From positions 32,001 through 96,000 of the IMG/VR virus record IMGVR_UViG_2563367078_000003: a DNA stretch of 64,000 nucleotides; one strand, written 5' to 3'. The position numbers and the translations under genes were made by a program. Source of the DNA: a virus (lineage: Duplodnaviria > Caudoviricetes). The first letter of the stretch is position 1, and every line of letters begins with the position of its first letter. The notes below the pieces were generated by a model. That model was not told the origin of the DNA, did not search any database, and worked only from the letters and a program-made list of their open reading frames with translations. Shown in pieces: positions 15,731 through 63,785 of the stretch.

Positions 15731-16129
15731 GTGAAGAACAAGATTGTCGCCGGATCGCTGGCGCTGGGCATCATCGGCCTCGGCGCGGGGACGGCTCACG
15801 CTGGCACTCCCGAGCAGAACACCCAGGCCATGAATACTTTCAGTGCCACTGTCGGCGTAGCGACCACCACCGGAGCGCTCGTCGGGACCGGCCTCGGGGC
15901 AGTCGCTGGATGCATCATCGGCGGCGTAGTCACCAGTCCCACAGTCGTTTTCGTTCCGCTGGGGTGCCTGACCACCGGTGCCCTCGGAGCCAGCATCGGC
16001 GGCGTCGCCGGAACTCTGATCGTCGGCGGTCCGACTGCGGTGATCGCTGGCGTTCAGATGGTCGAGGTTTTGATCGCTCCTGCAACCCCGGCCCCGCCGA
16101 TGAAGGCGGTCGGAGCCCCGCTCACCTAA
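15731..16129 (+). CDS. secreted glycine-zipper membrane protein
   Basis: signal peptide ending AHA; GxxxG repeats with two Cys. Confidence 0.75.
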   Translation: MKNKIVAGSLALGIIGLGAGTAHAGTPEQNTQAMNTFSATVGVATTTGALVGTGLGAVAGCIIGGVVTSPTVVFVPLGCLTTGALGASIGGVAGTLIVGGPTAVIAGVQMVEVLIAPATPAPPMKAVGAPLT

Positions 16130-16148
16130 CCGCGAAAGGCTGAGGCGA

Positions 16149-16418
16149 ATGCCGTTCATGGCAACCGAGGCGAAACTTCTTGCCGCACTGCTTCACGCGG
16201 GGATCGGGCAGACCATCCCTCAGCTCAGAACCAAGACCGGCATCTCTGCGAGCACGATCGGATTGAAACTTCGGCAACTCGCGTATCAGGACATGGTCTA
16301 CAAAGACCTCGCAGGCTGGCAGCTCAGTTTGCGAGGACGGCGGGCTATTTCGGCCCCCCGGTATCACGACATCGTCGCCGGACTTCGGCCTGAGCGGCAC
16401 AACCTCGAAAGGAATTGA
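16149..16418 (+). CDS. winged-helix DNA-binding protein
   Basis: TIPQLRTKTGISASTIGLKLRQL...WQLSLRGR. Confidence 0.6.
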   Translation: MPFMATEAKLLAALLHAGIGQTIPQLRTKTGISASTIGLKLRQLAYQDMVYKDLAGWQLSLRGRRAISAPRYHDIVAGLRPERHNLERN

Positions 16419-16703
16419 TCGAATGCTTGGAATCGCAGCGCCTGGGGAATCCGGTAACGCCGAGGACAACATCAACTACAACACCGACCCCCGGCTGGAT
16501 AAAGGCGGCGACGACGGCCCCCGGCAGGGACTCCGCGTCGGCGTGAAGCTCTGACACTTCATTGAAAATCTTCCCTGGCCTACCCCTCATCGGGCCGGGG
16601 AACGCGACAGGGCTCCGAGGTATTTCTCCTTTCGGAAGTCGAGGAGCAAAAGAGTACCGGGGACAATCGGAGCCCTGTCGCACCCAATCGAAAAGCACAC
16701 GAA

Positions 16704-16958
16704 ATGGATTACGCTGATATGGAAGCCTGGCTGATTGTATTAGGCATTGGGTTCGTTGTTGCGACCGTGGGATGGATGTTGTTCTGGCTGGATGCCCGAT
16801 ATGAAGCTGAACTCGAACACGAATTCGAACTCGGGCTGTACTACTCCTCGAATGCCGCAGAACTGATGGACCTCGCCAAGGAGCTGCCGCAGGTCCCCGT
16901 CGAGCCCACCTACACAGATCAGTACGGCGATGTGCGATACGCGGGCGTGCTGCGGTGA
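16704..16958 (+). CDS. small membrane protein
   Basis: N-terminal transmembrane helix. Confidence 0.65.
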   Translation: MDYADMEAWLIVLGIGFVVATVGWMLFWLDARYEAELEHEFELGLYYSSNAAELMDLAKELPQVPVEPTYTDQYGDVRYAGVLR

Positions 16959-17239
16959 GTACGGCTGAGCAAACCGAACCGCCCGCCGCGCTCCAGGCGT
17001 CAAATCCGTCGCAGTTCGTGGCAGCCGTCAGGCGCGATCCGTCATGGTATCTCGTTCACGGGGGTTCGACGGGTTCCAAGCTTCGCCCGCGCGTGATCGT
17101 TGCGTTCTGCGGGCTCAGGGGCGGTCCGTGCAGCGCGGCGATATTCGAAGGCGGCAAGGTCGAAGTCCGGGATTTCGAAGGCGACTGGCTCGGCCGTCTG
17201 AATTACGTCGATCACCGGATGAGACACGCAAAACTCTGA
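16955..17239 (+). CDS. hypothetical protein
   Basis: GTGA-coupled ORF. Confidence 0.6.
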   Translation: MSTAEQTEPPAALQASNPSQFVAAVRRDPSWYLVHGGSTGSKLRPRVIVAFCGLRGGPCSAAIFEGGKVEVRDFEGDWLGRLNYVDHRMRHAKL

Positions 17240-17706
17240 CGCGTGCGACCGATCAGAGTTTTGCGTGTCTGGGTACCGCCCGGCATAAATCGCAGCTCGT
17301 TGCATACCTTGCCGAACATCCGCATCCTACCAAAGGTTGACCGAATTGAACAACGACCTCGTTCTCAGGCTGGCCCACTCCTACGACGGCAGCTCGCCTG
17401 AATTCACCCGTCTCGCAAACCTTTTCGCGACGAGCGCGTTAACCGCCGAAGAACTCCGCGCCGCTGAAGAACAAGGTTGCCGCGTGAACGCGTACTGGCG
17501 CGGGCAGTATATCGGCCAGTTCCCCCCGACCCAATCCCGGCAGAGTATCTGCAAGGAAGTCGCGGTCGCGCACGCTGGATGAAGACTTCCCGGCCGGTTG
17601 ACAGGCGATTACCGGACCGGGAGACGAAAACCCTTGGGACCAGTTACCTCCCCCTGTACGAGGTCCCAAGGGTTTTCTTTCGTGTTCACATCTACAGGAA
17701 TGGAAT

Positions 17707-17952
17707 ATGAGTTCTCGTCTCCTCTGCAACAAGCTCGAACGCGCGTGGATTTCCCAGACGATACAGCTGTACGTTTCCGGGACCGTCGCGTTCATCGCAT
17801 GGCTGTTCTACACGTGGGCGTGCTTGGTTCAATCTCCGGCGTGGGCGGTATGGCGCTCCGTGCTGGGATGCCTTTTCGGACTGGGGACGCTGTGGCTCAC
17901 CTTCGCCGTGCTGCGCCGGAAGCGTACAGAGCGCAAGATCCGGGGTTGGTGA
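17707..17952 (+). CDS. small membrane protein
   Basis: two transmembrane segments. Confidence 0.55.
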   Translation: MSSRLLCNKLERAWISQTIQLYVSGTVAFIAWLFYTWACLVQSPAWAVWRSVLGCLFGLGTLWLTFAVLRRKRTERKIRGW

Positions 17953-32747: not shown

Positions 32748-34562
32748 TTAGATGACCCCGAGATCATGGATCGCGCCCATAATTGCTTGAATGCGCTCGA
32801 AAGCACGCGCCACCGGATCGACCGGAATGCGTTGACCGATAGTGATGTTCCACGTCGGCGCGGTTTTGCGATCCCAGGTCAGCGTAATTTCCGAGACACG
32901 GTCCACGTAAATAGACCCGGGAGGTGTGCCTCGAACGGTAGAGCCGATTCTGTCGCCGACATAAAAGTGACCGAAACCGTTTTGACCGACCAGCCATGGC
33001 AAGCCGTCAGCGACCGAGAATTTATGCGTGAATATCTCGCGCGTCGCCCACATCGATGCCCGGAGTCCAAGCAGTGCGGAAATGGTGTAGGCGTTGTCTC
33101 CTCCAGCCGCGAATCGCTCTCTGTAATGACTGAATCCAAGGCTTTGCGCGCGACTCGGATCCTTCCATGCCATAAAACTCAGAAAAACGTCGGTATATAG
33201 CGGCTTGAGCAGGGAATCCAACATTCCGCCAATAGGTGGAACGCCGATCATCATTGCGATCATGTCTCCGGCCATATTCACGGTCGCGGAGATCAATTCA
33301 TTGACACCGGGCATCGAGTGTCCGCCCGTTACGTGCTGAACGTCTTTCGCTGGAGAACCGGTGAACAATGACGTCTGAATACCCGAGTGGGCTTCTTCGC
33401 GGTAGATGATTCCGGGGCACTGCGGCAGCGTTCCGATCCATCCCGGCTGGTAGTACTCCTCGGGGAAGTTCGGGTCGGGAATCGGCAGCGTGCCGTCGTC
33501 GAAACCATCGGTGGCGAACTGCTGCACGGCATAGAGGAGACCGGTGAACAAATCGCCGCCGAAACTGGTCCCGGTGGTGTACCCCGATTTGTCGAGGATA
33601 TCGATGATCAGGCAGCCGTTGCGGAGCTTAGCGCCTTCCCAGGGGGGTGGATCTCCGGTGAGATATCTTCGGAATGTCGGCGTGAGCTGAGCGTCCTGAA
33701 GAATCGGCTTCGCGACGGTGAAGAAATCTTTGAACCGCGCCAGAAGAATAGCGAAGACAGAATTGTCCTGCCCGACCGGATCAGGCGCGACGACCATTGA
33801 CCACGACGACTGATCCAGGTCGAACCACTGATTAGCATCGAGGGGGTCGTCCGGCAGCATCCACAAAGACGATTCGAGCCGGAGAATATTACAGAAAAGC
33901 GTCGTTTTCAGACACCACTTAGCAGGTCCGAAAAGCAGCCACCATTTTGGAAACTGGATCTCGGCGGGCAAAAAAGGATTGGAGCATATTTACCTTGCCA
34001 GGTCCACCCCCCGCCTAGTCTTCCGGGTAATCCAGAATTTCAGCGGGGGGCGGACCCAGCACAGGATGTGCTTCAATTCTTCGAAATCATGCTTGAACAG
34101 CACCCGGCAAATCATCGTGCCGTCTTGCTGTTTCTCGATTTCGTAGTGATCCATGCGGCCCGACCAGCGGACCCCATCCTTATCGACGGTTACATGGATA
34201 TTCTTGGTCGTACGACCATCATGGTTGATAACCCATTGACTGAGGTAATAGTCGACAGGCATCTCGATCTTGCCCGAGCCGGTCTCGCCGTCGATCTCCT
34301 GGAAACTCGCGGTATAGGCGTGCGCGACCCTCCCTCGCAGGATCCAGTTGCCGTCGAATAGTTTGACGGTCGGCATCCTGAGGCGGTTGTCGCGCTGTTG
34401 TTTGATGTTGTTGACGATCGACCAGTATTCGGCGTCGCAATCGATCGGAGTTACTTCGGAATCAGGCTCGCCGGGGCCGCGATGAAACGGCTTTCGCAGC
34501 GTTACGGTCTGAGCCTCTTGCCGATATCGGCGGGCGTCTGTTGGCCCGAGGTTGTGAATCAT
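32748..34562 (-). CDS. minor tail protein (mycobacteriophage Gp37/ReqiPepy6-like), interrupted by a 72-nt insertion at 33984-34055
   Basis: Both ORFs are in the same frame; removing the insert gives ...ELKHILCW-SNPFLPAEIQFPK... Confidence 0.75.
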
Positions 34563-57168: not shown

Positions 57169-57807
57169 TTACTGAAAAACCACTCCGGATGCGGTGGTCG
57201 AATAATCGGCTGCCGAAAAGTCGTAGTCGGTGTGCGCACCGAGGAAGTAACCAATCGGGCCAGCGACGGCGTTGCAGACACCATCGGCCGCGTGACACAC
57301 CTCGAGGACCGGCACCGAACCGAAGTCGGCGTCAGCGCCGGAGTAGTCGGGGTACGGCAGCCACTCCATCGGCGCGACAGCCATGAAGCCGGGTCCGCCG
57401 GGGCCAGCGACGCGCTTCGGATCCGCGAGGAGGACAGCGTTGAGATTGGAGGCCGATTTGTGCTCGCTGACCCAGACGTGGACGACCGCAGCGCCGCCGG
57501 AGTGACCCAGGAGCAGGATGTGGTCGGCCGGGCACTGAGCGCGGTGATCGTCGACAAGCCGGTTCAGCTCGTGCACGCCAGCCGGGAGATCGATCGAGTT
57601 GTAGCCGACGCGCTGATCGACCTGCAGATAGTCGGAGTCCTCAGCCGTGAATGCCAGCGGCCAGCCGAAGTTGACCCGAAGGCCGCCGACTCCGATCGAC
57701 CACACGCCGGTACAGACATCGGCATACGCGGGAGCGGGGATGAAAGGAAGAATGCCGCCGATCGCCAAAACCGCAGCGAAGAACAGGCTCAGACATTTGC
57801 GGACCAC
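57169..57807 (-). CDS. secreted cutinase-like alpha/beta hydrolase
   Basis: signal peptide, CP...LLGHSGGA, LLADP, CHAADGVC, H. Confidence 0.8.
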   Translation of the reverse strand: MVRKCLSLFFAAVLAIGGILPFIPAPAYADVCTGVWSIGVGGLRVNFGWPLAFTAEDSDYLQVDQRVGYNSIDLPAGVHELNRLVDDHRAQCPADHILLLGHSGGAAVVHVWVSEHKSASNLNAVLLADPKRVAGPGGPGFMAVAPMEWLPYPDYSGADADFGSVPVLEVCHAADGVCNAVAGPIGYFLGAHTDYDFSAADYSTTASGVVFQ

Positions 57808-58339
57808 GGGCGGCAGCTCTCTCGGAATGGAGTAAGAGAAAGCCCCTCGCGCTGAATCAGCTCAGCCGCCACACCACCAAATCAATAACTGCGGGGCGAT
57901 ATCGAGCGCGAGGGGCATGGTCACCCGGAGTGGAGAAGGCAGCCTTCAGATCGGCGCAACTCAACGGGTGGCACAAAAAATGCCCCGGCGATTTGCCTGA
58001 CCTTTTCGGGCCGGTAGGGATCGTTCCGGGGCTTTGCATTGAATTCGGCGGATGTGGGCATTGAACCGCCTAACGCAAGTTTACCACGACGTGTCAGGTA
58101 TTCGCATTCAGGTCTATTTCCAAAGCCATTTCCGGCGACATTTACGCGGCGGCTCGAGCGAGAAGGCGGCGGTCCAGGCGCTGGGATGGCGAGGCCGAGG
58201 ACGTCGAATTTGCGCTGATCATGATATTCGTGTACAAGCGGCTCCTGTTCACGGCGAGCGTGGGGATGGCCGGTTTTGCCGTCACTCTAGTTACCACACG
58301 GCTATCCACTTTTTGAACGGCTGCGTGATATCGCTTCGC

Positions 58340-58900
58340 CCCGAAATTAGATACCCCAGGGGGGTACACGGAATTCCTGCTCGAAATTCGGGGAAAAATC
58401 GTTCTGGCCTGGTCCTCGGAAAGTCATAACCGCAGGTCAGGGCATTTTTTCACTAGAGAGAGAAGCGGCTCGGGGGCCGTCCCGTATACCCTCCCCGCCG
58501 CCTGGTCGCACCCCCTCCCCCCTATGCCTGGCGTCTCACATTGTGGGATGGGGTCTCGGATGCTGGGATCGCTGGCTACCGACGGGCATCTAGGGGACCT
58601 GGAAGCGGGGGCCCTGCCCGAGATCGGCTGTAGGGACTCGAGCCGATCTTGGTAGGGCCCGGCCTATCGGCGTGTCGCGGCGTGTCGTAGTGAGGTATCT
58701 CTCATTGACAGGTGGGGATGCATGCTGTATTCACGCGCGGTTCCTATCCATCTCCGGACTGCCACGCTGGCACCGAAAACATACTCTGACCTGCGGTTAT
58801 GCCATGCGTAGCCGTGGGGCGGTGCCTCTGACCTGCGCATTTGCACGTGGACACATTGCGTGTACCTTGGACACCAACGGACACCCAACGCACCACTGTG
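58340..58900. other. probable genome end / cos region
   Basis: non-coding, divergent gene orientation, G/C runs (CCCCAGGGGGGT, CCCCCTCCCCCC), 16-bp inverted repeat 58425-58440/58786-58801; upstream of the HNH and terminase genes. Confidence 0.5.
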
Positions 58901-58911
58901 AGGATTGAGTC

Positions 58912-59883
58912 ATGACTACCAACACCAATGCCAACGCCAACACCAATGCCAATGCCGATGCCGATGCCGATGCCGATGCCGATGCTGTGCGTACTGCCTT
59001 GCTGGCGAGCGACACCGGCATCACCGTAAGTGACCTTGTCGCCGCTACGGGCGGAACTACGGCCACCGTGCGCAAGGTGCTGGCTGGCCTCGAGTCGGAC
59101 GGGCTGGCACAGCGTGAGCGCGTCGGGCGTAGCGACCGCTGGTCTGCCGTTGCCGAGTCTGCCGAGGTTGTGACCGAACGGGGCATGACTCATGCCGGAC
59201 TGGACGTGGCGGGTACCGGTATCCGTCTGGTGGAAGACACGCCGGGCGTGTGGATTGCTCTTAAGGGTGGCAACGCACATCGGCCGGGGCTTGCCGCGCG
59301 TGTCGGTACTGTCATGGTGATCAGCGAGGGCAAGTTGCTCGCGATCGGCGAAGGCATGCAAACTGAATACGTCGAATCGCTCGAGGCGGGGGGTCGGTTC
59401 ATCGCTGGCACGGTCAAGGTGCGCAAGTCGACTAAATCCGCGCTGGCACAAGTGAAGCTCGATATCAAGGACAGCGCTCGCGCCCGTAACACCTTGCTCG
59501 CGCGCAAGAACGGACTCAACAAAGCCGCGTACGCGACCCTTGCCGCGCGTATCGAGACTCTTTCCGAGCGCGTGACGGTTGCGAGCGACAAGCATGCAGA
59601 GAAGGGCTTGCGTGCCACCGACGCGCGTCTGTTCACGGCTGGTCAGTCTCTCGAGGAGTCTCAGGCGCGCCAGACGCTCGCTGTTAATCAGTTGGCAGAG
59701 GTGAACCGTCGGTTGCGCCTCGAAATCGACAACCTCCGTGCATTGCGCGACAAGGCGCTCGGTATGGGCGTTCCGCAGTCCGAGGTTGACCAGCTGGTCG
59801 CGTCCGTGAAGCGCTCGGGTGATCCCGTAGCGGAAGCTGCGCAGATTGCCGAGATGTTCGCTGGTCCCGAACCTGCCGAGTGA
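58912..59883 (+). CDS. winged-helix plus coiled-coil protein
   Basis: ITVSDLVAATGGTTATVRKVLAGLESDG; long coiled coil. Confidence 0.75.
   Translation: MTTNTNANANTNANADADADADADAVRTALLASDTGITVSDLVAATGGTTATVRKVLAGLESDGLAQRERVGRSDRWSAVAESAEVVTERGMTHAGLDVAGTGIRLVEDTPGVWIALKGGNAHRPGLAARVGTVMVISEGKLLAIGEGMQTEYVESLEAGGRFIAGTVKVRKSTKSALAQVKLDIKDSARARNTLLARKNGLNKAAYATLAARIETLSERVTVASDKHAEKGLRATDARLFTAGQSLEESQARQTLAVNQLAEVNRRLRLEIDNLRALRDKALGMGVPQSEVDQLVASVKRSGDPVAEAAQIAEMFAGPEPAE
58919..58986 (+). repeat. in-frame hexamer microsatellite (GCCAAT/GCCGAT)n
   Basis: encodes NTNANANTNANADADADADAD. Confidence 0.85.
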
Positions 59884-59889
59884 ATGCCT

Positions 59890-60715
59890 CGAGCCTAGCG
59901 GGCCCAACGTCACAGTGACGCAATCACCCGCTAGGTTCACATAGGCTTACCGCGTAATCGGTCGGTCTATGTGAGCCAGACGGCTCGAAACGGTCCCCAG
60001 TGTCACGCCCTAACAAGCGGACGCGCAACGGGATCACAGCAGGAAAACAGCGCGACGCCCTAAAAAGCGCGCGGACGGTCGGCCCGGACCGCAACCGGTG
60101 TCCACATGATTTGTTCTCAATTCCATAGCGTGAGGCAAGAACGGCGAGCGGGTAGCGTTGTATCATCCCGTAATCGCGCGTCTGATCAGTAGATACCGGC
60201 GTCGGTGCGTATTGGCCTGGTCCGCATGTGAGCGCTTAGGAGGCTCGCGGATACCGCAATGACAAGCCAACGTGCCCGGTCTGTCGATATCGGTAGCGGC
60301 GCACAGATGTTTTGTGCGATTGGCTTCGCGCCCTGGTAACCGTTCTTGTCGACACATATCCACGCCGCAATATCTCTGCGCGCAGGCTGGCACATTGTAG
60401 GGTGTCCGCCTGCGCGTTCGCGGTATTGCGTTGGCAGTGATGAGAGTTTCTACTGTCCGGCAGTGCTGTCTGTTCGATCTAGGATCACGGGCATTGCCGA
60501 AAAACCGGTAGGTCCCGATGACATGGAAACTCGGCGAAGGCTATGCGTTCGCGTTCTGTTGCATCCGCTTGTGTCGGTGCGAATGGTCGCGAAAAACGCT
60601 AAATGTCTGGATTCATTCGATGAAATTGAATCGGTTAGATAGGCCATAGCTGTGCGCATTCGTGCGTGCGGTCATGGCCGACTAGTCGACTTAATCAGTT
60701 GGCTGAAACGCGAGA
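59890..60715 (+). ncRNA. candidate ~830-nt large structured RNA
   Basis: ORF-poor; nested long-range stems 60013-60033/60554-60572, 60134-60144/60340-60350, 60366-60387/60408-60430; G-U pairs on the + strand. Confidence 0.65.
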
Positions 60716-60727
60716 AAGGGTGACTTC

Positions 60728-61054
60728 ATGCATGACAGATTCGATGCCGAGAAAATGGCGGCGGATATGTTAGAGGAGGCACAAGAGCGCACGGCAGGAC
60801 TTCAATGGTCTGTCGAAATACAGGAATTCACAACTGAGCGCGAGTTTGGCAAAAAGCGCATCTATCGAGCCGAAATGGACGATTGCTTTCGGCTGTTCGA
60901 CGAATACCGCGCACTGTTGATCGCTACCGGCGCGCGGCAGACGTGCGGCAACGGTTGGTATTACAGCCTTGAATTGCCCAACAATAGAGCGTGTGTCGTA
61001 ACGCTGTTCGCAGGCGACAAAATGTATACCGGCATTCGCCTGAGCGGCGAGTAA
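60728..61054 (+). CDS. hypothetical protein
   Basis: RBS AAAGGG, 108 aa. Confidence 0.7.
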   Translation: MHDRFDAEKMAADMLEEAQERTAGLQWSVEIQEFTTEREFGKKRIYRAEMDDCFRLFDEYRALLIATGARQTCGNGWYYSLELPNNRACVVTLFAGDKMYTGIRLSGE

Positions 61055-61072
61055 ACAAAAGGAGACGCAACA

Positions 61073-61255
61073 ATGTCGAAATTCATTAGAGGTAATACGG
61101 TTACCGTCAATGGACGCGAAGCGAAGGTCCTCGGAGTTATCACCGAAACTACCCTCAAAATTAGGTTCGAGGGTGAATATCACGCGGACATCGTTTCCGT
61201 TGATGACATTTCCGGCAACGCGATTGGCTTCGACTTCAAGACGTACATGTCCTGA
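61073..61255 (+). CDS. small SH3-like hypothetical protein
   Basis: RBS AAGGAG; beta-strand pattern. Confidence 0.7.
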   Translation: MSKFIRGNTVTVNGREAKVLGVITETTLKIRFEGEYHADIVSVDDISGNAIGFDFKTYMS

Positions 61256-61345
61256 TGCTGTAGCGGAGATAGCGGGGTGCGATGTTGTTTGTCGCACCTC
61301 AGCTACCGCGCTATATCGGCGTGGCATCGAGAGGGGAAATTGAAA

Positions 61346-61585: not shown

Positions 61586-61875
61586 CGCTGTGGCTGTACA
61601 TCATCGATCCAACCAAGGCCACTGGGCACTACGGGGTGTATCCCGCTCCGCTCGCTCGCTGGCTGGTCCGCAAGGCGAATGAGTTGTGGGTTACGTACGC
61701 CGCCGCTCCGGATGTCTTTCACCGGCTGAGCTACGCCACACGTGAGGACACGTTTCCGACCAGGTAGCACCAAGAGTCCCGTTCGCCTACTCGAGGCGGC
61801 ATAGAGACGAGATTCGAACCGTCACGGGACGCTATGCCCACGTCGGGCAGAAACACAACAGCGGGAGCAGGGGAA

Positions 61876-63669: not shown

Positions 63670-63744
63670 CATAGCCCTTGCATTGGCGTACATCTCGCAG
63701 CCAGCGGGAGCGTATACCGGTTCGACTCCGGTCCGGGCACTATG
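63670..63744 (+). ncRNA. tRNA-like element with a canonical T-arm but no full cloverleaf
   Basis: ACCGG-TTCGACT-CCGGT; closing stem CATAG-CCC/GGG-CTATG. Confidence 0.45.
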
Positions 63745-63785
63745 CCGCACACGCGGCAGAAATCTCGACAACAAAGGGATAGATC

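What the first reader, a model, noticed from the sequence alone, without database searches (positions are those of the whole stretch)
59890..60715. Second giant (~830-nt) structured RNA candidate next to the genome end
Seen: an ~840-bp ORF-poor gap packed with nested helices: 59891-59902/59927-59938; 59934-59946/59965-59977; ACAAGCGGA..GCAACGGGA 60013-60033 pairing ~540 nt away with 60554-60572; GGCAAGAACGG/CCGTTCTTGTC (60134-60144/60340-60350); CGCAATATC..GCGCGCAGGC/GCCTGCGCGT..GGTATTGCG (60366-60430); 60458-60467/60490-60499. The motif ACGCCCTAA(C/A)AAGCG occurs twice (about 60005 and 60055). G-U pairs point to the + strand, the same sense as the flanking genes. Inference: an early-expressed multi-domain ncRNA (scaffold, decoy or antitermination RNA). 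It shares no obvious sequence with the 55-kb element.
Basis: partly seen in the sequence, partly recalled or inferred. Interest (0 to 1): 0.8.

Follow-up and report, generated by a model that had tools for sequence, protein, structure and literature searches.

The report
Hairpin-rich non-coding gap in prophage
An 844-base stretch without genes in a large prophage carries several unusually stable RNA-type hairpins on the transcribed strand, but nothing shows that it is one giant RNA, and its role remains a guess.

Summary
The gap (window 59884-60727) is real and non-coding. It shows no codon periodicity, all 12 of its ORFs score negative on codon usage, and it has no Pfam, PHROG or Rfam match. 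It is the longest non-coding-like run in a roughly 110-kb low-GC prophage of a 10.4-Mb actinobacterium.

It folds far better than shuffled copies (z -6.3, beyond all 15 control windows). That excess sits in local modules:
- a 100-nt Y-shaped double hairpin right after the upstream gene's stop codon (z -7.2);
- hairpins at 60341-60442 and 60444-60532;
- a three-hairpin block at 60587-60713.

All six local modules score better on the + strand, the 3' block strongly so. This points to RNA hairpins in the sense of the operon.

The middle part tested (60040-60335) is no more structured than chance. The long-range 9-bp stem is matched or beaten in 13 of 25 shuffles. The 15-nt motif does occur exactly twice.

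No homologous DNA could be fetched, so covariation is untested, and no RNA data exist.

My best reading is a cis-acting structured spacer of the early transcript. It resembles the abundant non-coding RNAs that cluster A mycobacteriophages make from their early promoter Pleft. This scan had already noted the same stretch once, on the same DNA (e1-6205351).

The parts
58912..59883 (+). Upstream gene (323 aa). It has a weak winged-helix N-terminal part, a small beta domain and a long coiled-coil hairpin. It is the first gene of the + strand operon.
   Evidence: ORF. Pfam wHTH families all fall below their cut-offs. Six relatives were found among 1.84 billion representatives. Their C-termini align to the end of this ORF, which fixes the stop at 59883. 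AF2 model with pLDDT 71.
59884..60727 (+). The 844-nt non-coding gap as a whole.
   Evidence: No Rfam match. No paralogue in the bacterium's own genome.
59889..59988 (+). Y-shaped element. A 7-bp closing stem encloses two adjacent hairpins (59896-59933 and 59934-59977). It starts 6 nt after the stop codon and has no U tract after it.
   Evidence: -55.0 kcal/mol; z -7.2 on +, -5.5 on - (100 shuffles each). Hairpin 59934-59977 alone gives z -6.8. Part of it (59930-59986) is held, with 5 differences, in a metagenome contig whose flanks do not fit the window.
59998..60069 (+). Two copies of a 22-nt direct repeat (59998-60019 and 60048-60069, 82% alike). The core is ACGCCCTAA(C/A)AAGCG and the spacing is 50 nt.
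   Evidence: These are the only two copies in the window. The 50-nt spacing is not a multiple of 3, so the two copies lie in different reading frames (sequence).
60040..60335 (+). Middle part with no excess structure.
   Evidence: z -1.1 (+) and -1.4 (-), 40 shuffles each. The 200-nt windows at 60001 and 60201 give z -0.8 and +0.4.
60341..60442 (+). Long interrupted hairpin with an 8-bp lower stem, a 10-bp GC-rich stem, a 5-bp tip and an 8-nt loop.
   Evidence: z -3.6 (+) / -2.8 (-). The core 60360-60436 gives z -4.7. A diverged metagenome contig covers 60245-60503.
60444..60532 (+). Branched hairpin with a 9-bp closing stem and a 10-bp inner stem.
   Evidence: z -4.0 (+) / -2.8 (-); z -3.7 with 200 shuffles.
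60587..60713 (+). 3' block of three hairpins (60604-60641, 60642-60679, 60683-60705) inside a 5-bp closing stem. It ends just before the ribosome-binding site of the next gene.
   Evidence: z -4.0 on + against -0.8 on -. For 60642-60679: -4.8 / -1.9. For 60683-60705: -3.95 / +0.08. This is the clearest + strand (RNA-level) signal.
60728..61054 (+). Next gene (108 aa, no known relatives). AAAGGGTG lies 6 nt before its ATG.
   Evidence: Positive codon log-odds. Only itself was found in the 5.8-billion-protein search.

Best explanation
The gap is a non-coding, transcribed spacer of the + strand (probably early) operon of a large prophage. It works through separate local RNA hairpin modules, not through one giant fold.

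Inferred scheme:
1. Transcription that starts in the divergent region upstream of the 323-aa gene runs into the Y-shaped double hairpin (59889-59988) right after that gene's stop codon. The Y element acts as a U-tract-less terminator or attenuator, or as a processing and 3'-end-protecting structure.
2. Read-through or processed RNA then carries a mostly unstructured segment. This segment holds two copies of a 15-22-nt motif, which may be a binding site for a protein or RNA.
3. Next come the hairpin modules 60341-60442, 60444-60532 and the three-hairpin block 60587-60713. These stabilise or process the transcript and set translation of the first small early gene.
4. Stable fragments may accumulate, as they do from the non-coding region downstream of the early promoter Pleft of cluster A mycobacteriophages.

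Shown: the stretch is non-coding, its local stability far exceeds chance, and the stability favours the + strand.
Inferred: transcription, termination or processing, and any trans-acting role.
For: - Non-coding: flat codon periodicity. 12 of 12 gap ORFs are negative on codon usage against 8 of 8 positive neighbours. No family hits. It is the longest of only 4 non-coding-like runs of 420 nt or more in the 115-kb island.
- Local modules far beyond shuffles: z -7.2, -3.6, -4.0 and -4.0.
- + strand better in 6 of 6 local modules. The 3' block is almost purely + specific (z -4.0 against -0.8). G-U pairs number 39 on + against 20 on -.
- The same pattern holds elsewhere in the window. In the + operon, all 4 of the 200-nt windows with z <= -3 are stronger on +. 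In the - strand late operon, 3 of 5 such windows are stronger on -.
- Three hairpins of another family sit between genes further down the same operon and are also + biased. Hairpins in the mRNA sense therefore look like a habit of this phage.
- A diverged relative in one metagenome run keeps pieces of the gap: 60245-60503 with 33 differences and 17 gap letters, and 59930-59986 with 5 differences. Its indels are 14, 1, 1 and 1 nt long, which fits non-coding sequence.
- Precedent: L5, D29 and StarStuff make their most abundant, stable, processed RNAs from about 500 bp of non-coding DNA just downstream of Pleft near the right genome end (PMC5712189, passages and section 11 read).
Against: - No expression data of any kind were available.
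- No covariation test was possible, because the gap and both flanking genes have no fetchable relatives.
- The Y element, 60341-60442 and 60444-60532 are also significant on the - strand (z -5.5, -2.8, -2.8). DNA palindromes or - strand RNA are therefore not excluded for these three.
- The long span 60013-60572 scores better on the - strand (z -5.8 against -4.1; 15 shuffles each).
- No + strand terminator-like site with a U tract and no sigma-70-like promoter was found in 57800-61300. The start and end of any transcript are unknown.
- Unlike the cluster A case, a protein gene lies between the presumed promoter region and the gap. There is also no sequence similarity to any phage record.
- The metagenome indels sum to multiples of three (14+1 and +1-1), so they do not exclude coding by themselves.
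Confidence: 0.45

Rival explanations
1. One reading: the whole ~830 nt is one discrete, stable, multi-domain ('ornate') non-coding RNA that acts in trans as a scaffold, decoy or antitermination RNA. It would be a new class beside GOLLD and ROOL.
For: - Whole-gap z is -6.26, beyond 15 of 15 control windows.
- The size is like GOLLD's. GOLLD and ROOL are phage-borne and of unknown function (PMC12286853, passages read).
- A 17-bp Watson-Crick plus G-U complement (60145-60161/60460-60476) is longer than in all 25 shuffles, whose maximum is 16.
- Pieces of the gap are kept in a diverged metagenome relative.
Against: - No Rfam family matches, even at E 10.
- The segment 60040-60335 is no better than shuffles.
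- The closing long-range stem is at chance level, matched or beaten in 13 of 25 shuffles.
- A crude test of pairing between the 5' and 3' halves found 93 of 300 shuffles at least as good.
- No tRNA genes lie nearby, where GOLLD and ROOL usually sit: none in the window or in about 52 kb of flanks.
- No homologues were found, so no covariation can be shown.
Confidence: 0.12
2. A DNA-level control region. The Y element ends the transcript of a separately expressed regulator gene (58912-59883). The rest holds the promoter and operators of the small-gene operon. The two 22-nt repeats would be operator sites, perhaps for the upstream DNA-binding protein.
For: - The direct repeat occurs exactly twice, 50 nt apart, about five helical turns.
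- The upstream protein has a weak winged-helix signal (PHROG 'transcriptional regulator' at E 0.0011).
- The Y element, 60341-60442 and 60444-60532 are significant on both strands.
Against: - No promoter-like site was found by the consensus scan, although that scan is tuned to E. coli.
- The 3' hairpins are stable only on the + strand, which is an RNA property and not a DNA one.
- 844 bp is far more than a promoter-operator region needs.
- The repeat is not palindromic and has only two copies.
Confidence: 0.2
3. An evolutionary leftover: a decayed gene or a mosaic junction with no function of its own, whose hairpins are incidental or are only terminators of lost genes.
For: - The early region is highly mosaic. 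Two prophages of the same genus share the cutinase-HNH-terminase module, but they have no relative of the gap or of any of the 9 + strand genes tested.
- One metagenome contig fits only 59930-59986 and is unlike the window on both sides.
- The segment 60040-60335 is featureless.
Against: - Decayed coding sequence should fold like its shuffles, yet four separate modules have z <= -3.6 with a consistent strand bias.
- No gap ORF hits Pfam or PHROGs, counting 3 and 10 ORFs scanned.
- Phage genomes rarely keep 0.8 kb of useless DNA. This is the longest such run in 115 kb.
Confidence: 0.15
4. The gap holds one or more small, unusual protein genes that were missed, for example 60518-60649 (43 aa) or 60523-60642 (39 aa). 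Both lie downstream of a GGTAGG motif.
For: - Weak codon-position GC periodicity at 60450-60650, in the frame of the downstream gene.
- A possible ribosome-binding site at 60507-60512 (sequence).
Against: - Codon log-odds are -0.37 and -0.45 for these two ORFs, like the other gap ORFs and unlike the real small genes.
- Among the gap ORFs scanned there was no family hit, and none for 60518-60649.
- No homologue was found for the 60346-60504 frame among 5.8 billion proteins, although the length range searched was limited.
- At most about 130 nt of the 844 would be explained.
Confidence: 0.05

Closest known systems
Non-coding RNAs made from the early lytic promoter Pleft at the right end of cluster A mycobacteriophages (L5, D29, StarStuff; Dedrick et al. 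2017, PMC5712189)
   Same: - A phage of a mycolic-acid actinobacterium.
- Several hundred bp of ORF-free DNA at the head of a long operon of small early genes, near the packaging end of the genome.
- Function unknown.
- In cluster A the RNA is the most abundant phage transcript. It is stable, it is processed into 100-500-nt species, and about 90% of transcripts end at its far side (passages and section 11 read).
   Different: - No sequence similarity: blastn against 50,697 phage records found nothing.
- Here a 323-aa gene lies between the presumed promoter region and the gap.
- The gap is longer (844 against about 500 bp).
- Abundance, stability, processing and toxicity are all untested here.
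GOLLD and ROOL, large ornate RNAs of phages and prophages (Rfam; Kretsch et al. 2025, PMC12286853)
   Same: - Size class: GOLLD often exceeds 800 nt.
- Phage or prophage location.
- Unknown function (passages read).
   Different: - No match to their covariance models or to any of the 4227 Rfam families, even at E 10.
- No tRNA island nearby.
- No evidence for a global fold.
Phage antitermination RNA sites: lambda nut (boxA/boxB) and HK022 put (recalled from general knowledge, not from a call)
   Same: - Cis-acting RNA signals early in an early operon.
- put is two adjacent stem-loops, as in the Y element.
- The repeated motif has a faint likeness to boxA.
   Different: - The host's own boxA-like sequence in the rrn leader (L044) has no match within 3 mismatches anywhere in the window.
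- No sequence or model comparison with put was possible.
- The resemblance is one of shape only.
U-tract-less ('I-shaped' and tandem) intrinsic terminators described for mycobacteria (recalled, not read here)
   Same: The Y element is a very stable GC-rich hairpin pair directly after a stop codon, with no U run after it.
   Different: - Termination was not tested.
- At 100 nt with three helices, the element is larger than a usual terminator.

Membership tests
GOLLD / ROOL / any Rfam 15 family | Score at or above the family's covariance-model threshold | tested here: not met
   0 matches at gathering scores over the whole window. 0 matches at E <= 10 over 59700-60900.
GOLLD / ROOL | Usual position beside tRNA genes in a phage or prophage | tested here: not met
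   ARAGORN found no tRNA in the window or in three flanking loci covering about 52 kb of the island.
Large ornate RNA (generic) | Multi-domain secondary structure supported by covariation across homologues | not testable with these tools
   No homologous DNA could be fetched. The one relative seen (run X1) is shown only as a difference table, and the rows for the gap were cut from that table.
Large ornate RNA (generic) | Global fold with long-range helices beyond chance | tested here: not met
   The 9-bp long-range stem is matched or beaten in 13 of 25 shuffles. The segment 60040-60335 gives z -1.1.
Cluster A mycobacteriophage Pleft non-coding RNA | Sequence similarity to the L5/D29 right-end region | tested here: not met
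   blastn in 'distant' mode against 50,697 phage records found no match.
Cluster A mycobacteriophage Pleft non-coding RNA | ORF-free region at the head of the early operon near the genome end | tested here: inconclusive
   The region is ORF-free by codon tests, and small genes without known relatives follow it. However, a 323-aa gene precedes it, and neither the promoter nor the genome end was mapped.
Cluster A mycobacteriophage Pleft non-coding RNA | Very abundant, stable, processed early transcript | not testable with these tools
   No RNA run holds the stretch.
lambda-type nut site | A boxA like that of the host's rrn leader | tested here: not met
   The host rrn leader boxA-like sequence was read in L044. 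It has 0 matches within 3 mismatches in the window, where shuffles expect 3.5.
Canonical intrinsic terminator | GC-rich hairpin followed by a U tract on the transcribed strand | tested here: not met
   The scan of 57800-61300 found no + strand site inside the gap. It found 3 sites in all, equal to the shuffle mean of 3.0.

The most novel reading that the evidence does not exclude
The gap, or its 3' half of about 390 nt (60341-60727) together with the Y element, encodes a previously undescribed stable phage RNA. It would be made early in infection and act in trans. It might act as a decoy or sponge for a host RNA-binding factor or defence sensor, with the twice-repeated 15-nt motif as the bait. 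That would make it the first member of a new class of actinophage non-coding RNA and a functional parallel to the unexplained, toxic Pleft RNAs of cluster A phages.
Probability: 0.12. Interest if true: 0.7.

Novelty: new member of a known kind. Interest (0 to 1): 0.33.

Why it matters
Actinobacteriophages are known to make very abundant early non-coding RNAs whose function is still unexplained and which are toxic to the host (PMC5712189). An unrelated prophage with a larger, hairpin-rich, ORF-free segment at a similar place suggests the habit is wider than cluster A. It would offer a second system in which to ask what such RNAs do.

If instead the segment is only a terminator plus a leader, it is ordinary phage gene regulation. 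With no expression data and no covariation, the finding is a candidate and not a discovery.

Tried and rejected
HOMOLOGUE HUNT (all negative)
- Gap DNA: no match in the phage records or in 400 family genomes. In its own genome it matches only itself.
- A 4.8-kb stretch around the gap against 266 genomes of the genus matched only a low-complexity GCCGAT-type repeat.
- The 323-aa protein found no relative in genome contigs, viral contigs or phage records. The 5.8-billion word search was swamped by the low-complexity N-terminus. The 266 genus genomes gave only three marginal hits, E about 8-9e-4.
- phmmer over 1.84 billion representatives found six relatives.
- Scans with an alignment of these relatives found nothing in metagenome contigs, genome contigs or 400 family genomes.
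- Three relatives used as tblastn queries against the phage records, and two used against viral contigs, also found nothing.
- The downstream 108-aa protein found only itself.
- A gap ORF translation used as bait found nothing.
- Two DNA patterns from the gap had no exact match in viral contigs.
- Earlier notes of this scan show no look-alike stretch in another genome.

EXPRESSION
- No RNA holder is listed for the stretch.

RUN X1
- The parts of the stretch without contig cover in run X1 are not used as evidence.

REJECTED IDEAS
- nut/boxA: rejected.
- Membership of the downstream intergenic hairpin family: the model R1 finds its three seeds on the + strand, weaker - strand matches at two of them, and four weak matches elsewhere (E >= 0.17). 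None lies in the gap.
- Transposon-like element: no second copy in the genome.
- tRNA or tmRNA: none.

TESTS THAT LED NOWHERE
- The duplexfold test was a poor design, because it pairs whole halves. I use it only as a crude negative.
- The structure of the upstream protein gave no Foldseek PDB match at E <= 0.001. It adds nothing on how the gap works.
- By terminase, two genus prophages (65% and 54% identity) and three IMG/VR contigs (about 82%) are related. None of them carries this early region.
Its alignment of the cluster A right-end region might bear on the comparison.

Full report
CONTEXT
The window is C99:50237-114236 of a 10.4-Mb genome with 66.8% GC. It lies inside an island of about 110 kb with about 59% GC (C99 about 20-130 kb).

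The island is a prophage.
- The - strand from about 57.8 kb down to 30 kb carries a cutinase-like esterase (Pfam PF01083, E 3e-8). I read an HNH nuclease from its motifs in the ORF translation. I also assign a portal-sized ORF and a 2106-aa ORF of tape-measure size by size and position only.
- The large terminase on that strand is 46% identical to those of Rhodococcus phages and 35% to those of cluster J mycobacteriophages.
- From 58912 onward a + strand operon starts with a 323-aa gene and continues with small genes that have no known relatives.
- The finding is the 844-bp space between the first and second genes of that operon.

IS IT NON-CODING?
- Codon-position GC periodicity is strong in the flanking genes (spread 0.2-0.4) and flat (0.12 or less) from 59900 to 60450. 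There is only a weak signal at 60450-60650.
- I trained a codon log-odds score on 11 genes of the prophage. It is negative for all 12 gap ORFs of 34-98 codons on both strands (-0.08 to -0.63). It is positive for all 8 small genes that were not used in training (+0.04 to +0.58).
- Three gap ORFs scanned against Pfam and ten against PHROGs gave nothing better than E 0.048.
- Over the 115-kb island only four runs of 420 nt or more lack periodicity. This one (59835-60584) is the longest.
- The upstream gene's end is fixed by relatives that align to its C-terminus.

IS IT MORE STRUCTURED THAN CHANCE?
- The whole gap folds at -362.8 kcal/mol on the + strand (z -6.26) and at -324.3 on the - strand (z -4.62; 20 shuffles each).
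- Fifteen control windows of the same length gave z from +2.2 to -4.6.
- A scan of 320 non-overlapping 200-nt windows on both strands has mean z of about -0.1 and sd of about 1.3-1.4. The window at 59801 (+) has z -6.2 and ranks second of 640.

Breaking the gap into modules shows where the signal lies:

| Module | z on + | z on - |
|---|---|---|
| Y element 59889-59988 | -7.2 | -5.5 |
| 60040-60335 | -1.1 | -1.4 |
| 60341-60442 | -3.6 | -2.8 |
| 60444-60532 | -4.0 | -2.8 |
| 60587-60713 | -4.0 | -0.8 |
| inner hairpin 60642-60679 | -4.8 | -1.9 |
| inner hairpin 60683-60705 | -3.95 | +0.08 |

The excess is therefore local and sits at the two ends. The middle part tested is ordinary.

THE LONG-RANGE HELICES
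- The 9-bp Watson-Crick stem 60013-60021/60564-60572, which would close the 'giant' fold, is matched or beaten in 13 of 25 dinucleotide shuffles.
- The whole span 60013-60572 scores better on the - strand (z -5.8) than on the + strand (z -4.1; 15 shuffles each). This does not fit a + strand giant fold.
- A crude test of pairing between the two halves is also unremarkable: 93 of 300 shuffles do at least as well.
- One 17-pair run with seven G-U pairs (60145-60161/60460-60476) exceeds all 25 shuffles, whose maximum is 16. It is not used in the MFE fold and it competes with a local hairpin. I treat it as marginal.

WHICH STRAND?
- All six local modules score better on the + strand. The 3' block is nearly + specific.
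- The + strand MFE has 39 G-U pairs and 3 A-C single mismatches. The - strand MFE has 20 and 8.
- Because each strand is compared with its own shuffles, base composition is controlled for.
- The same rule mostly holds elsewhere. All four strongly structured 200-nt windows of the + operon favour +. Of five in the - strand late operon, three favour -.
- This fits RNA hairpins in the sense of transcription. The Y element and the two middle hairpins are also significant on the - strand, so a DNA-level role is not excluded for them.

THE REPEAT
- ACGCCCTAA(C/A)AAGCG occurs at 60005 and 60055 and nowhere else in 64 kb within 2 mismatches. The likeness extends to 22 nt.
- The 50-nt spacing puts the two copies in different reading frames.
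- It is not like the host's rrn boxA-like sequence, which itself has no match in the window.

KNOWN FAMILIES
- No Rfam family matches at gathering scores (whole window) or at E 10 (59700-60900).
- There are no tRNAs in the window or in three flanking loci of the island.
- A covariance model of the three intergenic hairpins further down the operon matches nothing in the gap.

RELATIVES
- The gap has no paralogue in its own genome. It has no match in 50,697 phage records, 400 family genomes or 266 genus genomes.
- Both flanking proteins are nearly without relatives. The 108-aa protein finds only itself.
- The 323-aa protein has six relatives among 1.84 billion representatives. Those that span the N-terminal region (P0002, P0003) carry low-complexity sequence in place of its winged-helix part.
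- Two prophages of the genus and three IMG/VR contigs share the cutinase-HNH-terminase module, wholly or in part. They have a different region beyond it.
- One metagenome run holds short contigs of a diverged relative. One 248-nt contig covers 60245-60503 with 33 differences and indels of 14, 1, 1 and 1 nt. A 516-nt contig fits only 59930-59986, with 5 differences. The per-site differences for these contigs were cut from the output, so no covariation count was possible.

COMPARISON WITH WHAT IS KNOWN
- The closest described thing is the roughly 500-bp non-coding region between Pleft and gene 89 of L5, D29 and StarStuff. It yields the most abundant phage RNAs, which are stable, processed into 100-500-nt species, mostly terminated at a defined place, and toxic when cloned. 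Their function is unknown (PMC5712189; abstract, passages and section 11 read).
- The present gap is alike in position and in lacking ORFs. It shares no sequence with that region, it follows a protein gene instead of a mapped promoter, and it has no expression data.
- GOLLD and ROOL are the known giant phage RNAs (PMC12286853, passages read). Membership was tested and not met.

VERDICT
It is wrong in reading it as one nested giant fold.
- My best explanation (0.45) is a transcribed, cis-acting structured spacer. It consists of a terminator- or processing-type Y element after gene 1, an unstructured stretch with a paired motif, and a run of + strand hairpins leading to the next gene. It may leave stable RNA fragments.
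- The rivals are a DNA-level control region (0.2), an evolutionary leftover (0.15), a true giant trans-acting RNA (0.12) and missed small genes (0.05).
- Interest is moderate to low until expression or covariation is shown.

Noticed in passing
Its 200-nt windows give z between -2.1 and +1.9, so it shows no excess structure. In the IMG/VR relative L032, a 145-aa ORF (556-993) lies between the relatives of the 196-aa and 171-aa genes, where this prophage has the gap plus a 230-aa gene.
   Followed up: partly
window 16000-17800: A cluster of strongly structured 200-nt windows on both strands (z -3.3 to -5.1). The 844-nt window at 16000 gives z -4.6. I did not examine it.
   Followed up: no
window 34001-34200: This is the most extreme window of the scan (z -7.8 on the - strand, -5.7 on +). 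It coincides with the hairpin 'coding gap' in the tail gene that an earlier agent followed up.
   Followed up: no
window 58425-58451 / 58775-58801 and 58826-58844: In the ~1-kb divergent intergenic region upstream of the 323-aa gene there is a 27-nt inverted repeat, 89% complementary with arms 323 nt apart. A third, direct copy of its core (CTCTGACCTGCG) lies 42 nt further on. The layout looks like operator sites. TTGACA at 58705-58710 is followed 17 nt later by TATTCA (sequence).
   Followed up: no
window 58912-59883: The 323-aa protein belongs to a tiny family: 6 hits among 1.84 billion representatives. The relatives that span the N-terminal region (P0002, P0003) carry low-complexity Ala/Lys-rich sequence where this protein has a weak winged-helix segment. 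The model shows a beta domain plus a long coiled-coil hairpin, with no PDB match at E <= 0.001.
   Followed up: partly
L040 1464-1524, 3699-3759, 5224-5284 (window 65464-69284): Three intergenic hairpins of one family have a 10-bp upper stem with G-U pairs and compensatory differences. A covariance model finds these three far above everything else, and they score much better on the + strand.
   Followed up: partly
window 58925-58985: The Asn/Ala/Asp-coding hexanucleotide repeat at the start of the 323-aa gene matches low-complexity repeats in 141 of 266 genomes of the genus. This swamps DNA and word-based protein searches.
   Followed up: no
window 61770-61860 and 63670-63760: Both stretches fold into a closing stem with inner hairpins, followed by a small GC hairpin and AGAAA. 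One contains a GGTTCGACTCC T-loop-like arm. ARAGORN calls no tRNA. z is only -3.0 and -1.9.
   Followed up: partly
L048 (G456:C38) and L049 (G572:C2): Two prophages in other species of the genus keep the order cutinase-like esterase, HNH, 196-aa gene, terminase (44-65% identity). Their adjoining regions are unrelated.
   Followed up: partly
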